Shown: positions 10,801-16,800 of the stretch, one piece after another
How positions within the stretch are numbered: the first letter of the stretch is position 1
Layout: each line of letters begins with the position of its first letter
Assembly: GCF_057098645.1 (NCBI RefSeq)
Contig: NZ_CM169472.1
Length of the DNA: 64,000 nt
Strand: one strand, 5' to 3'
Program-made: the position numbers

Positions 10801-13800
10801 AAGGTCGATATACGCCTGGTTGCGGTAGTAGTTGTTGACGTCGGCCACCACGGCCTTACCGAACATATTGGTGTAAACCGCCGCACCGTTTCCTTCCACC
10901 GGAACACCGGCCACGCCATCGGCATCAATCAGCAGGCGCGTACCGCCCATATTCTGGGTACGGTGGAGCGCGCCACCCTGCGCGGTCAGCGTCGCGCCGC
11001 CCTGTAAGGAAATACCTGCCGAGGTGTACTGTCCTTCATGATAGTTGGCGCTGAGGTCCACCTGCGCCAGCGAGCCATCGTGGCTGTAATAGCCGTCAAC
11101 GCTGGAGTGATTGTCGCTGGTCCCCACGTTCAGCTGGTAGTGAGTTGCGTCATCGACACGGCTGAAATACCCCACCTGGCTGCTGTCCGAACCGCTGCCG
11201 TAGTTGCCGTTATAGCTGATGGTGCTGCTGTCACCCCACGGCATGCTGAGCGATATGTACACACCTTTATCGGCCTGGTTATCATACTCGTAGCGGTATC
11301 CGGTCATGGAAATGCTCATATTGCGGATACTGCCCAGGTTGAAGTAGTGCGAGAGCATGACGTTGTAGTTGGTCTGTTCGTCGCGATCCCAGTAGGTATG
11401 GCGGGTGTAGTTTAGATAAACAGACACACCGGCATCCCTGAAGTTCTGGTTGTAGGTGGCGGTGTACATCTCTTTGTCGTTGCCAGTGCGCACCATTTCG
11501 CTGTCGCTGGCATCGAGATACTCGCTCATGGTCATGAAGTTCTCTTCCGAGAAGCGGTATCCGGCAAAAGTGACGCGGCTGTTCAGTTCATCGAAGTCTT
11601 TGGAATAGCTCAGGCGAAACGAGTTGCCGTCCAGTGAACCTTTCCCGTAGGCGGTCTCTTTATCCAGACGGGTATGCGAGTGGGTGATATCAAAGGCCAC
11701 CGCACCAAACACAGACAGGTCGCGACCGACGCCAAGCGCCGCCGACTGATAGTGTTCATCTGCCAGCGCCCCGCCGTATAGCGACCAGCCGTTGGCAATC
11801 CCCCAGGAAGCTTCGCCGCCGGAGAAGAAACCGCCTTCCACGTGGTGCCCCCACTCCTGCGGGCGGCCCATCATCAGTTTATAGCGCACCTGGCCGGGGC
11901 GAGTCAGGAACGGCATCGAGGCGGTGTTGATGTCATATTCCTGCACCTGACCGTTCTGTTCTTCAATGCGGATATGCAGCGTACCGGAGACCGAATCGCC
12001 AAGATCCTGGATGCGGAACGGCCCCGCCGGGACCTGGGTTTCGTAGATGACGCGGCCCAACTGGCTGACGGTCACTTTCGCGGTGGTGTGCGCCACGCCG
12101 GAGATATCCGGCGCATAGCCGCGCAGATTCGGCGGCAACATTTGATCGTCGGTGCTGATACTGCCACCCACGTAGTTAAAGCCGTCGAAAATATCAGAAT
12201 TCAGGTAGTCTTCGCCAAGGCCAAGTTTGGCTTTTAGCGACGGTAAGGCTCGCCAGGCGTAGTAGCGGCTCCACTCCCAGTTTTTTTGCGTGTCATCACC
12301 GTTGATAACATCGTCATCATTGCTTTTACTATGCAAATAATCAGTCTGCCAGTCGGCACGAAGACGCCATGCGCCGAGGTTCACCCCAACCGTCCCGTTA
12401 CCGCTAATTTCATTGCTGTCATCCCCGCCATTTTCTTCATGTCGTGTCTGGGCGGTAATACTGTAGTCAGCAATTAAACCAGATATACCGTCATCCCTGC
12501 GTGAAGGCGGATCCCAGTTGATGTCGGTATATTCAAGGTAAGCCTGGGGTAATGAAATGACTAACGCTGACTGACTCAGGTCAGCTTTAATATCAATGCC
12601 TTCCAGTTGACCGGGTTTCAGGCATTTGCCGTCGTGGATCCATTGCAGGTTTTTTGCCACATCCTCTTTTAAGCCAAACTGCGCGACCAGTTCAGGCGTC
12701 AGGCAGGCATAGGTTTTACTGGCATCGTTCTCTGAGGCGTACCAGTAAATATCGTATTCTTCCGTCAGCGGCTGTTTATTTAGTTGAACCTGTAAATTGT
12801 ATTTCCCAGGCTCGACATAACCCTGGCTGGAAAATCGCTTCAGATCGATTTTTGTGTCGCCTTTTAACTCCAGAAAACGGGAATCAAACTGAATTTCATC
12901 TTCAGCCCAGGCATTGACATAACTCCCGGACATTGCCAATGCAACGCAGCAGGGAAGTACCCGCAGTCGGAAAAGAGAATGGTCAGGCATACACGTATCC
13001 ATCCGTAATTATTATAATTTGCGCGAATTCCATTTAAAAACCCCATAGCCCGAAAGCTATGGGGGTATCACTTAGAGATAAGTAATCTGGAAGGTCGTGT
13101 TGGCTTCAAAATTACCTAAATCTGGCGCATCAGCAGCGCCCACCAGCCAGGCTTTAAAGTCCAGCGTCTGCTTCGCTTTGCCTTTGTTGGTCGCCGTATC
13201 GTTTACGATTTTCTGTTCGATACCCGCGCCGCTTTTATAAGAGGTTCCCTGAGCGTCACCAATGGCCAGGCTGACATTGTTAAATGCCGCACCAGTATCG
13301 GTATTATAAATGGTGTAGTAATTGCCGCTGTTGGTAGAAGACGCGTTACCGGTGAAGGTAGTGGTCATCGTTGTCTGGGTGTCAAACACACAGTCTTGCA
13401 GATGGATCTGGAAAGCTTTCGGTGTAGAAGTCCCGTTGTTTTTCAGGATCCCTGAACCAATGTCACCCATATCAACTTCCAGTTTGTGATCATCAGGAAC
13501 GATGGAGCACGGGGAATCTTCAATGGTGCCGTAGAAACGTGCTGTACCATTGTTGCCAGCGGCGATTGTTGAAGTAGAAGCGAACGCACCCATTACCATT
13601 GTTGCAGCAATAGCTGTTTTTACAAACTTACTCATTATTTGTCCTTAAACCATAAATAATTAAAAATATAAACATTGCAATACATTGATTCAGTCAATAG
13701 CAATTATTTATACCCAGCCATTGAATAAGCTATCCGATCTAACTAACAAGAAAATAGGTCGCATAAGAAGATATTCTTTGGTGTGGGCGGATGGTGATAT

Positions 13801-16800
13801 TTTGTCTTTATTGCTTCAAATTATATTTACTTAACAGTGAATTAAGGAGCACTTAACATATAATCAAAAAGGTGAAATTTTGAGAGTTTACTTATAAAAA
13901 CAAATAAAATGCTTAGAAAACATCTTTTACATAATTAAAATTTATGGGGAATGTATACAAAAAAGACGATCTTAGATTAATTTTGAAATTGTATTTTTTG
14001 AAGATATAATATTAAAGCATCACAAACAATATTAAATCAAGACACAAAAATATCATTTCTTTTTTACTGTTAATTGTTCCATTAGCTTTATAATTTGTAA
14101 GAATATATTACAACCTAGTCTCATTTCATCAGAAATTAATAGGGAAGCAGAGGAAAGAGTGCGATGAAATCATCATCGCAGCATACCAACTCCGTGAAGG
14201 GTTTTTAGTGAATTTATACTATTGCAAAAAGACAAATGCCCGATGTACAGCTTACATCGGGCATTTTTTCAAACAAATCAGATAGCTTTCGCCATCTTCA
14301 GATTACACGGGCTCATCTGCCAGTTGAATGTGCCGTTTCCGCTTTCATCAAGCGTTACGCTCGCAATGGCCGAGGTGGTAAACATAGGCGGCGTTTCGCC
14401 CGGACATAACTCGGCAACCAGATACCCGACTAACGGTAAGTGGGAGATAACCAACACCGAAGCAACACCTTCATTGGTCAACGCCTGCAAATAGGCACTG
14501 ACCAGACCAACATCGCCGCAGGGCGTTAACTCCGGCAGAACTTCTGCACTGGAAGGCAGGTTCAGACAATCCCCTACTTCCTCCAGTGTTTGCTCGGCTC
14601 GCAGGAACGGGCTCACCAGAACGCGTTCGATTTCCACTTTTTGACCTTTCAGCCAGTTCGCCATCAGGCGAGATTCGTCACAACCATTAGTGGTAAGAGG
14701 ACGAACCGAATCACTGGCGGCATCGAGGGCTGCGTCGCCGTGACGCATGATAAAAACTTGCATATTGCACCGCTTTTGTTAACCAGATTCGCCCGTTTTC
14801 TTTCATCTGAAACCAGAGAAAGAAAACGGTGTCCGGCATTGTGCCTTATCCATTCACCGAATGAAACGCTGTTTTTTACCTCAATGGTGTAAGTATAGTC
14901 AATATGCGTTTACATTTTGACCAACAATCCGCCATTCAGCGCGGATTCATATAGCTTTGACCCTTTTAATGAGGGTCAGTTGCACTTGTTTTCCAAAAAC
15001 TTTCCCCGCGCTCGCTCATCTCTAATAAACGCTCGCAAGGGGTAAAACGAGAACCATACTGCGTGGCCAGTCGTTGCATTATTGCAACCACTTCGCCCGC
15101 GCCGAGAGAATCGATATAGCGAAACGGTCCACCGAGAAATGGCGGAAAACCAATGCCAAATACCGCACCAATATCCCCGTCACGCACGCTACGGATAACC
15201 TGCTCATCAACACAACGTACTGCTTCATTCAGCATCAACATCACACACCGTTCAGCAACCTGCGGTGCGGAGAGTCGCCCCTGCCCTTGTGCGCCAATGA
15301 GCGGGTAAATGGCAGGATCGACCTGTTTTTTGCTTTTACGCCCTTTCTGACCATAAAGATAGAAACCCCGACCATTTTTTCTGCCTTTGCGATCGTCGTT
15401 CAAAATTGAAGAAACAACATTTGCAGGCGCGCTAAAACGTTCTCCATAAGCGGCTTCCAGTACAGGAATAATTTTAGTCCCGGTGTCGATTCCTACCTCA
15501 TCCAAAAGTTGGATTGGACCTACCGGAAAACCAAATTTCACTAGCGCGGCATCAATGTGCTCTACCCGTTCACCTTCGGTCAGCATGCGGATAGCTTCAT
15601 TAATGTAAGGCGCTAAGATGCGATTGACGTAAAACCCGGCTTTGTCACGCACGACAATGGGCGTTTTGCCCTGTTTTTTCGCCAGTTTTACCGTAGTGGC
15701 GATGGTTTGCGCTGATGTACCCGCATGAGGAATAATCTCCACCAGCGGCATTTTTTCCACCGGACTGAAGAAATGCAAGCCAATAACTTGCTCAGGTCGC
15801 GCGGCGTGAGCGGCGATATCACCAATCGGTAAAGATGACGTATTCGAAGCAAAGATGGTATGAGCGGCGCAATTTTGCTCAACTTCCGCCACCATCTGTT
15901 GTTTCAATTCGAGATTTTCAAACACCGCTTCAATAATCAGATCGCGATGGGCAAAGCCGCGATAGTCCGTCGTTCCGGAGATTAATGCCAGCTGTTTGTC
16001 ACGTTCACTGGCTTTGAGATGACGACGGCGAACTTTGCCCTCCAGCTGATCCCAACTGTACTTCAGCGCATGATTTATGCCCTGCGGGTTGATATCTTTA
16101 ATTCTGACCGGAATCCCCGCTTTACAAGCAGTGACATAAGCAATACCGCCGCCCATCAAGCCACCACCTAAAATCCCCACGCTGTTTAATGGCGCAGGCG
16201 GCGCATCACTGCCGGGATCTTTCTTCACTTCCGTACTGGCAAAAAAGATACTACGCAAAGCTTGCGATTGTGGCGTCATCGCCAGTTCGCCAAACGCCCG
16301 TGCTTCAGCGTCATAGCCACTGCTGGTGCCCTGCGCTAATCCCGTTTCAACAACCTCCAGGATGCGTTCTGTCGCCGGATAATTGCCTTGAGTTTTGTGT
16401 TCTGTTTTCTTGCCGACCATTTTGAACAGCAGCGCACGACCTAACGGCCCCGCCAGAATACGCTCGCGTACAGGTAGAGGGCGGGAAGATGGGCGATCCT
16501 TCTTTGCTAGCTCAACAGCGGCTTCCAGCAGAATGGAGTGCGGAACAACGTCATCCACCAGCCCCAGCTTTAATGCCTGTTTCGCCCGAAGTTGTTTTCC
16601 GGTGAGGATCATCTCTAATGCTGTGCTGACGCCTATCAGACGCGGTAAACGCTGGGTGCCACCTGAACCGGGTAACAATCCAAGTTGTACTTCAGGCAAA
16701 CCGAGCACCGTTTTAGGATCGTCAGTACAAACGCGACCGTGGCACGCGAGCACCAACTCCAGCCCGCCGCCCAGGCAAGCGCCATGAATAGCCGCGATAA

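What the first reader, a model, noticed from the sequence alone, without database searches (positions are those of the whole stretch)
13636..14277. About 640 bp of very AT-rich non-coding DNA upstream of yfcV
Long A/T tracts (for example 13860-14110) with no convincing ORF. This is typical of H-NS-silenced fimbrial promoters and could hold a phase-variable or regulator-bound control region.
Basis: inference. Interest (0 to 1): 0.2.

Follow-up and report, generated by a model that had tools for sequence, protein, structure and literature searches.

The report
AT-rich control region of yfc fimbriae
This is the AT-rich gap between sixA and the first gene of the E. coli yfc fimbrial operon; the same gap in K-12 is already known to bind the silencing protein H-NS, so it is an ordinary silenced promoter region and not a new element.

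Summary
Bases 13636-14277 are a 642-bp gap between sixA and yfcV, both on the minus strand. GC is 0.28 against 0.468 for the window, and 0.20 at 13860-14110, the lowest anywhere in the 64 kb. Nothing is annotated there in RefSeq, no RNA family reaches its threshold, and no short ORF is shared among five diverged E. coli alleles.

The window matches E. coli O145:H28 at 99.8%. The gap has three parts:
- the sixA terminator hairpin (14234-14266), kept by compensatory changes;
- an AT-rich core dense in promoter-like sites on both strands;
- a conserved proximal segment ending in an invariant ribosome-binding site.

The K-12 version of this gap is published as a "promoter island". It binds H-NS in two ChIP studies and RNA polymerase in vitro, and yfc is described as cryptic. 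Silencing by H-NS is therefore supported by orthology, not by data on this allele.

Phase variation is not supported. All 428 genomes with this allele are collinear, no recombinase gene is nearby, homopolymers reach only 6 bases, and there is no pap-like GATC pair.

Minor extras are a positionally retained promoter-like site pointing away from yfcV, and a recombination patch relative to O157:H7. Already known; low interest.

The parts
7223..13635 (-). yfc chaperone-usher fimbrial operon (yfcV major subunit, intact usher, chaperone, three subunits, YfcO-type adhesin), the unit this region would control
   Evidence: ORFs; RefSeq annotation of the 99.8%-identical O145:H28 record
13636..13649 (-). 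Translation start region of yfcV: TTTAAGGACAAATA, with an AAGGA ribosome-binding site. It is invariant in all six aligned alleles.
   Evidence: This is the longest invariant block in the gap.
13636..13835 (-). Conserved proximal segment, probably a 5' leader and/or regulator sites. No convincing sigma-70 promoter was found in it.
   Evidence: 99-100% identical to O157:H7 and 91% then 69% identical to K-12 in the first two 100-bp bins. Conserved blocks are GAATA (13776-13772), TTCA and TGGCT (13725-13716). No promoter-like site pointing towards yfcV was found in this segment; the only hit that overlaps it (13831-13859) is on the opposite strand. The leader role is inferred.
13800..14110 (.). 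AT-rich core (GC 0.21, TpA steps 12.5 per 100 bp). It is the likely H-NS binding platform and carries overlapping promoter-like sites on both strands.
   Evidence: The orthologous K-12 segment is a promoter island bound by H-NS (PMC3661553).
13988..14015 (-). Promoter-like site facing yfcV: TTAATA-16-TACAAT (9 of 12 matches)
   Evidence: A site at the same alignment columns is present in O157 and the B2 alleles. Its activity is not shown.
13983..14010 (+). Best promoter-like site in the gap: TTGAAA-16-TATAAT (11 of 12 matches). It points away from yfcV, towards the two-way terminator.
   Evidence: It sits at the same alignment columns in four of five allele classes, with spacers of 16-18. Its activity is not shown.
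14102..14129 (-). Weaker promoter-like site facing yfcV: ATGAAA-16-TATATT (9 of 12 matches)
   Evidence: Not retained in the other alleles.
14111..14233 (.). Poorly conserved spacer (GC 0.38), largely deleted in phylogroup B2 alleles. It includes a strain-specific hairpin at 14160-14180.
14234..14266 (-). sixA intrinsic terminator: a perfect 14-bp stem with a 5-nt loop. T-runs follow the stem on both strands, so it could terminate in both directions.
   Evidence: The consensus fold over five alleles shows compensatory changes in 6 of 14 pairs.
14278..14763 (-). sixA (phosphohistidine phosphatase), the upstream neighbour

Best explanation
The gap is the regulatory region of the yfc fimbrial operon, preceded by the sixA terminator. 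Reading in the direction of yfcV transcription, it runs as follows: the sixA terminator (14266-14234), a variable spacer, a ~300-bp core of about 79% A+T, and a conserved ~200-bp proximal segment ending in an invariant ribosome-binding site. The core carries several overlapping promoter-like sites on both strands. The proposed mechanism is that H-NS spreads over the AT-rich core and blocks or traps RNA polymerase there. That would keep yfc cryptic under laboratory conditions, with relief coming from factors that counteract H-NS. Shown here: the composition, anatomy, conservation pattern and terminator. Shown in the literature for the K-12 orthologue only: H-NS occupancy and RNA polymerase binding. 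Inferred for this O145-type allele: H-NS binding, the position of the real yfcV promoter about 350-400 bp upstream of the ATG, and a long leader.
For: - Composition: GC is 0.28 overall and 0.20-0.21 in the core, the lowest in the 64-kb window.
- Conserved AT-richness: every one of five diverged allele classes has GC 0.26-0.32, although the core is only about 47-66% identical between classes and flanking sixA is 94-100% identical.
- Promoter-like sites: 10.9 per kb here against 1.6 per kb in the window.
- K-12 orthologue: it is listed as promoter island 2453647_489 yfcV/sixA with H-NS binding in the Kahramanoglou and Oshima data (PMC3661553). It is listed as holding the RpoD promoter TTGAAA-17-TATAGT, marked HNS (PMC3946193). 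It also gives an RpoS holoenzyme SELEX peak (PMC5493296).
- Expression: yfc is described as functional but cryptic, and many such fimbriae as H-NS-repressed (PMC3559732). yfcV rises when TosR (PMC5956150) or BolA (PMC4337573) is overproduced, as expected of a silenced promoter that can be derepressed.
- Nothing else explains the region: there is no annotation, no Rfam match and no conserved ORF.
Against: - There are no H-NS or transcription-start data for this allele, and its core is only about 55-60% identical to the K-12 core.
- The published H-NS motif TCGATAAATT is not enriched: two sites with 2 mismatches in the gap, against about one expected.
- A-tract phasing is marginal: period 10.8 bp, 1% of shuffles, with eight periods tried.
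- The excess of promoter-like sites is mostly a composition effect: 7 found against 4.2 +/- 1.9 in shuffles.
- The K-12 promoter named by Shimada et al. (PMC3946193) is not kept in this allele; the aligned bases read TTGTGT-17-TGTGAT.
- The best promoter-like site faces away from yfcV.
Confidence: 0.75

Rival explanations
1. The region is a phase-variable switch. The candidate mechanisms are a fimS-like invertible promoter segment, a pap-like Dam/Lrp methylation switch, or slipped-strand variation in a homopolymer that changes promoter spacing.
For: Fimbrial operons are often phase variable (established knowledge). Weak inverted repeats flank parts of the gap: 17 nt at 82% around 263 bp (13809-13825 / 14089-14105) and 27 nt at 70% around 153 bp. 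Two GATC sites are present, at 13736 and 13968.
Against: All 428 genomes that carry this allele match the whole 642 bp as one collinear piece, and the core occurs once per genome. No allele contains a segment that is the reverse complement of another, apart from the terminator palindrome. No recombinase or papI/papB-like gene lies nearby; the neighbours are sixA and yfcV, and the operon encodes only structural and assembly proteins. The GATC sites are 232 bp apart rather than about 102, about 1.6 are expected by chance, and only the proximal one is kept in K-12 while neither is kept in B2. The longest homopolymer is 6 bases.
Confidence: 0.03
2. The gap hides a gene of its own: a ~255-nt non-coding RNA on the plus strand. 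It would start about 14017 from the TTGAAA-16-TATAAT site and end at the two-way terminator (14234-14272). Alternatively, a very small protein is encoded within that RNA (14164-14208, 14 aa, preceded by GAGGA).
For: This is the only 11-of-12 promoter match in the gap. A promoter-like site sits at the same alignment columns in four of five allele classes: TTGAGA-17-TATACT, TTGGCA-18-TATAAT and TTGTGA-17-TATAAT. A T-run follows the terminator stem on the plus strand too. The 259-nt stretch folds better than shuffles, z = -4.6. A 14-15 codon ORF is kept between O145 and O157.
Against: The body of the putative RNA (14050-14233) is the least conserved part of the gap: 0-25% invariant columns, large insertions and deletions, and about 100 bp missing in B2. 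The fold score comes mainly from the sixA terminator hairpin, with a second contribution from the strain-specific hairpin at 14160-14180. No Rfam family reaches its threshold; the best is 29.6 bits against a cut-off of 49, lying on the terminator. The short peptide is not conserved in K-12, 118UI or B2. TATAAT-like hexamers are expected in 79% A+T DNA.
Confidence: 0.08
3. The AT-richness has no regulatory role. It would be drift or mutational bias in a long unconstrained spacer, or left-over composition of a horizontally acquired fimbrial locus. The real yfcV control elements would then lie only in the conserved proximal ~200 bp.
For: The core diverges far faster than its flanks and has few invariant blocks. 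The whole yfc operon is highly variable between phylogroups, with yfcU and yfcV 58-91% identical per 100-bp bin, as expected for a locus under recombination and diversification. The motif and curvature tests are inconclusive.
Against: Gap length (558-680 bp) and low GC (0.26-0.32) are kept in every allele class despite sequence turnover. The K-12 core binds H-NS and RNA polymerase. A distal block at 14010-14049 is as conserved as the proximal segment, with 35-45% invariant columns. H-NS binding would follow from the composition whatever its origin, so this rival concerns selection rather than mechanism.
Confidence: 0.14

Closest known systems
K-12 yfcV/sixA 'promoter island' (Panyukov & Ozoline 2013, PMC3661553; island 2453647_489)
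   Same: It is the same locus, between the same two genes in the same orientation. It has a similar length (680 vs 642 bp) and low GC (0.32 vs 0.28), with many promoter-like sites on both strands. The proximal ~100 bp are 91% identical and the ribosome-binding site is identical.
   Different: The core is only about 55-60% identical. The K-12 promoter TTGAAA-17-TATAGT is not retained. The usher gene downstream is intact here and a pseudogene in K-12. H-NS and RNA polymerase binding were measured only in K-12.
H-NS-silenced promoters of other cryptic E. coli chaperone-usher operons (yad, yeh, sfm, ecp/mat; fimB-fimE-fimA spacers)
   Same: Each is a long AT-rich spacer upstream of the major-subunit gene. 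All appear in the same promoter-island table with H-NS binding, and the operons are poorly expressed in culture (PMC3559732).
   Different: The fim region also has an invertible element and two recombinases, and ecp has its own regulator EcpR. No dedicated regulator gene or switch was found at yfc.
fimS invertible promoter of type 1 fimbriae
   Same: An AT-rich segment of about 300 bp carrying a fimbrial promoter, with short inverted repeats in the vicinity.
   Different: There are no good flanking repeats, no recombinase gene, and no inverted form in 428 genomes.
Bidirectional or overlapping promoters in AT-rich, H-NS-bound DNA
   Same: Two promoter-like sites on opposite strands share the same ~33 bp (13983-14015), each with its -35 hexamer overlapping or abutting the other's -10.
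   Different: The described bidirectional promoters share their -10 elements, with starts about 18 bp apart. Here the predicted starts would be about 38 bp apart, and no transcription data exist.

Membership tests
H-NS-silenced AT-rich promoter region | A+T content well above the genome mean (about 65-70% or more) over some hundreds of bp | tested here: met
   72.7% A+T over 13636-14233 and 79.1% over 13800-14110, against 53.2% for the window
H-NS-silenced AT-rich promoter region | H-NS occupancy in vivo | not testable with these tools
   Only the K-12 orthologue has data: H-NS is bound in the Kahramanoglou and Oshima sets (PMC3661553). There is nothing for the O145/O157-type allele.
H-NS-silenced AT-rich promoter region | Downstream genes derepressed when hns is removed or counteracted | not testable with these tools
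   The evidence is indirect. yfc is called cryptic (PMC3559732), and yfcV goes up on TosR or BolA overproduction. I could not read Korea et al. 2010.
H-NS-silenced AT-rich promoter region | High-affinity H-NS motif TCGATAAATT | tested here: inconclusive
   Two sites with 2 mismatches (13939-13948, 13973-13982) against about one expected. Window-wide there are 96 matches against 86 +/- 9 in shuffles.
H-NS-silenced AT-rich promoter region | Intrinsic curvature (A-tracts in helical phase) | tested here: inconclusive
   The AA/TT signal at period 10.8 bp exceeds 99% of shuffles, but eight periods were tried and periods 10-10.5 show nothing
Promoter island (Panyukov & Ozoline) | At least 8 PlatProm-predicted start points per 100 bp over at least 300 bp | not testable with these tools
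   PlatProm is not available. As a proxy, simple hexamer matches number 7 in 642 bp, 6.7 times the window density but only about 1.5 sd above composition-matched shuffles. The K-12 orthologue is on the published list.
Invertible-element phase switch (fimS type) | Both orientations found among genomes or reads | tested here: not met
   428 of 428 genomes are collinear, with one piece and one place each. No reverse-strand matches occur between alleles.
Invertible-element phase switch (fimS type) | Adjacent site-specific recombinase gene | tested here: not met
   The neighbours are sixA/fadJ on one side and yfcV/usher on the other
Invertible-element phase switch (fimS type) | Well-matched inverted repeats flanking a promoter-bearing segment | tested here: not met
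   The best candidates are 17 nt at 82% and 27 nt at 70% complementary, typical of chance matches in AT-rich DNA
Dam/Lrp methylation switch (pap type) | Two conserved GATC sites about 100 bp apart, plus papI/papB-like regulator genes | tested here: not met
   The GATC sites at 13736 and 13968 are 232 bp apart and only the first is kept in K-12. There are no regulator genes.
Slipped-strand phase variation | A long homopolymer or short tandem repeat in the promoter or 5' coding region | tested here: not met
   The longest A or T run is 6 bases, and the only adjacent (tandem-like) direct repeat is a 20-nt pair at 75% identity
Known small RNA families (Rfam 15) | Covariance-model score at or above the family's gathering threshold | tested here: not met
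   The best hit is 29.6 bits against a cut-off of 49 and lies on the terminator hairpin

The most novel reading that the evidence does not exclude
The overlapping pair of opposed promoter-like sites at 13983-14015 may be a selected device and not a by-product of AT-richness. The outward-facing site (11 of 12 matches) is kept at the same alignment position in four of five allele classes, with its spacer held at 16-18 bp by small insertions and deletions. It could compete with the yfcV-facing promoter for RNA polymerase, or drive a short orphan transcript to the two-way terminator. That would set how easily yfc escapes H-NS. The wholesale replacement of the core between lineages (O145 vs O157, 77-90% identical against 99-100% in the flanks) would then be a way of rewiring fimbrial expression by recombination of non-coding DNA.
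Probability: 0.1. Interest if true: 0.4.

Novelty: already known. Interest (0 to 1): 0.12.

Why it matters
It matters little beyond correct bookkeeping. yfcV is widely used as a marker of uropathogenic E. coli, and the yfc operon is intact in this strain. How the operon is switched on is therefore of practical interest, but the silenced, AT-rich nature of its upstream region is already documented for K-12. The one useful point for later work is that the control region comes in several very different alleles. Expression data from K-12 therefore cannot be carried over to O145/O157 or B2 strains without testing.

Tried and rejected
- **Rfam:** a permissive-threshold scan over 13000-15000 gave only sub-threshold hits on the terminator.
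- **Small ORFs:** I listed ATG-started ORFs of at least 12 codons in six alleles; none is shared beyond the near-identical O145/O157 pair.
- **H-NS motif:** the TCGATAAATT search showed no enrichment.
- **A-tract periodicity:** the signal is marginal.
- **RNA fold:** the z-score for the putative plus-strand RNA comes mainly from the sixA terminator, with a smaller contribution from the strain-specific hairpin at 14160-14180, so it says nothing about a separate RNA.
- **Proximal promoter:** the scans found no promoter-like site facing yfcV in the conserved proximal 170 bp. By eye, the TTGACT at 13697-13692 has no usable -10 hexamer 16-18 bp downstream.
- **Mobile element or repeat:** rejected, because the core occurs once per genome and only on chromosomes.
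- **Literature:** Korea et al. 2010 is not held. A search for H-NS ChIP in EHEC returned two papers that I did not open. The one paper naming 'sixA-yfcV' only reports an incidental +T insertion.
- **Other species:** I did not scan genome or metagenome collections. The allele diversity within E. coli, down to about 50% identity, was enough to test conservation, and the question did not justify the cost.
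Full report
**What is there.** The window is E. coli; the finding's stretch is 99.8% identical to O145:H28 strain RM12761. On the minus strand lie fadJ (14966-17110), sixA (14278-14763), then the 642-bp gap 13636-14277, then yfcV (13072-13635). 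After yfcV come an intact usher (10351-13002), a chaperone, three subunit genes and a YfcO-type adhesin gene down to 7223.

**Checking the observation.**
- GC is 0.28 for the gap against 0.468 for the window. It is 0.21 for 13801-14110 and 0.199 for 13860-14110.
- No other 642-bp stretch of the window is as AT-rich, and this is the only place where a 250-bp window falls to GC 0.25 or less.
- The longest ORF is 49 aa with a TTG start.
- RefSeq annotates nothing in this gap in any of the seven records opened.
- A permissive Rfam scan found nothing near a family threshold. The best hits lie on the terminator hairpin.
The distal 45 bp are the sixA terminator. The 14111-14277 part has GC 0.38 and is not especially AT-rich.

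**Anatomy.** Reading in the yfcV direction, the gap has four parts.
1. *sixA terminator (14266-14234).* A perfect 14-bp stem with a T-run. Across five alleles, 6 of its 14 pairs show compensatory changes. A T-run also follows the stem on the plus strand, so it could terminate in both directions.
2. *Variable spacer (14233-14111).* It has almost no invariant columns and is largely missing in phylogroup B2 alleles.
3. *AT-rich core (about 14110-13800).* It holds six of the gap's seven sigma-70-like matches, on both strands; the seventh lies at 14102-14129 in the spacer. For the gap that is 10.9 per kb against 1.6 per kb in the window. It is only 7 against 4.2 +/- 1.9 in composition-matched shuffles, so much of the excess is composition.
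4. *Proximal segment (13835-13636).* It is 99-100% identical to O157:H7. Against K-12 it is 91% and then 69% identical in its two 100-bp bins. It ends in the invariant TTTAAGGACAAATA just before the ATG. The scans found no promoter-like site facing yfcV in this segment and I found none by eye. The real promoter may therefore lie in the core, with a long leader. That is an inference.

**Comparison across E. coli.**
- sixA is found in 5425 of 5426 complete genomes, and in every record I opened a yfcV-type gene lies next to it.
- The gap comes in sharply different alleles. The O145/O157 type is present in full in 428 genomes. K-12-type genomes match only the proximal 170-200 bp. About 1900 genomes (B2 and others) do not match at all even by sensitive blastn.
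- Aligned, the alleles are homologous, with 65% mean column identity.
- All alleles keep a length of 558-680 bp and GC of 0.26-0.32. Composition and length are conserved while sequence is not.
- sixA next door is 94-100% identical in all comparisons, so the boundary of the variable yfc locus falls at the sixA terminator.

**What is known about the locus.**
- The K-12 yfcV/sixA spacer is one of 78 published "promoter islands". These are AT-rich regions crowded with promoter-like sites that bind RNA polymerase yet give little full-length RNA.
- The spacer is marked as H-NS-bound in the Kahramanoglou (MG1655) and Oshima (W3110) data (PMC3661553).
- Genomic SELEX lists it as holding an RpoD "constitutive" promoter, TTGAAA-17-TATAGT, flagged HNS (PMC3946193). 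It also gives an RpoS holoenzyme peak (PMC5493296).
- A ChIP-seq study of acid-resistance regulators lists an intergenic peak at yfcV; I did not establish which regulator (PMC5217608).
- Yfc is described as a core-associated, functional but cryptic fimbria, with H-NS repression as the general explanation for such operons (PMC3559732).
- yfcV is among the genes most raised by TosR induction in CFT073 (PMC5956150) and is raised by BolA overproduction in K-12 (PMC4337573).
The core here is about 55-60% identical to K-12 and the K-12 promoter hexamers are not kept.
- Direct sequence tests for H-NS were uninformative. The TCGATAAATT motif is not enriched and A-tract phasing is marginal. AT content remains the main predictor.

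**Phase variation.**
- All 428 genomes with this allele match the full 642 bp as one collinear piece. The 400-bp core alone also gives 428 genomes, each with one place and one piece. An inverted core would have broken these matches.
- A local all-against-all blast of six alleles gives no reverse-strand matches apart from the terminator palindrome and 11-25-bp chance hits.
- No recombinase or papI/papB-like gene is nearby.
- Homopolymers reach 6 bases at most.
- The two GATC sites are 232 bp apart. About 1.6 are expected by chance, and only the proximal one is kept in K-12.
- Phase variation is therefore not supported.

**Hidden genes.**
- None of the ATG-started ORFs of 12 codons or more is shared between allele classes.
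- The strongest promoter match in the gap is TTGAAA-16-TATAAT at 13983-14010, with 11 of 12 matches. It lies on the plus strand, pointing away from yfcV towards the two-way terminator, and would give an RNA of about 255 nt.
- A promoter-like site sits at the same alignment columns in O157 (TTGAGA-17-TATACT), K-12 (TTGGCA-18-TATAAT) and strain 118UI (TTGTGA-17-TATAAT), but not clearly in B2.
- It overlaps a yfcV-facing site, TTAATA-16-TACAAT (14015-13988), so the two would compete for polymerase.
- The body of the putative RNA is the least conserved part of the gap, and its good fold score is due mainly to the sixA terminator hairpin. I treat a functional sRNA as unlikely. The retained outward promoter remains a minor open point.

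**Verdict.** This is the ordinary, already described AT-rich control region of a cryptic fimbrial operon, most likely silenced by H-NS, with the sixA terminator at its far end. There is no invertible or otherwise phase-variable element, no sRNA family and no conserved small ORF. Novelty: already known. Interest: low.

Noticed in passing
window 13836-14235: There is a mosaic patch relative to O157:H7. yfcU, yfcV and the proximal 200 bp of the gap are 98-100% identical, and sixA is 97-100% identical. The AT-rich core is only 77-90% identical. The O145 core is about 99% identical to that of unrelated strains such as ATCC 8739. This points to replacement of about 400 bp of non-coding DNA by recombination.
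   Followed up: partly
window 10351-13002: The usher gene yfcU is intact here (883-aa ORF; RefSeq start at 12990). In the K-12-type record it is annotated as a pseudogene with an internal stop. The operon could therefore be functional in this strain.
   Followed up: no
window 7223-13635 versus loci L002, L004, L005: The whole yfc operon, not only its promoter, is highly diverged between phylogroups: the 3' part of yfcU and yfcV are 58-91% identical per 100-bp bin. The divergence stops sharply at the sixA terminator.
   Followed up: partly
window 14164-14208 (+): A 14-codon ORF (MKSSSQHTNSVKGF) is preceded by GAGGA. A 15-codon version (MNSVSKRINSVKGFE) is present in O157. K-12 has an unrelated 15-codon ORF at about the same place. 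This is probably chance.
   Followed up: partly
window 20842-22328, 28029-28422, 29564-29952, 57208-57560, 62426-62680: These are the window's other AT-rich stretches, with 250-bp GC of 0.30 or less. The first overlaps a 'hypothetical protein' gene at 20964-22244. It ties with the yfcV gap for the highest density of promoter-like sites. The K-12 list has a promoter island at yfdF/mlaA, and mlaA is the next gene here.
   Followed up: no
window 14936-15035: Identity to all other alleles dips locally to 0.88-0.92 around the 5' end of fadJ and the sixA-fadJ spacer, within an otherwise 94-100% identical stretch.
   Followed up: no
locus L007 (strain 2018-05-2CC): In a strain with a 98% identical yfcV-gap-sixA segment, yfcV is frameshifted and the usher is cut off by an IS3-family insertion. 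The operon decays in some lineages while the gap is retained.
   Followed up: no
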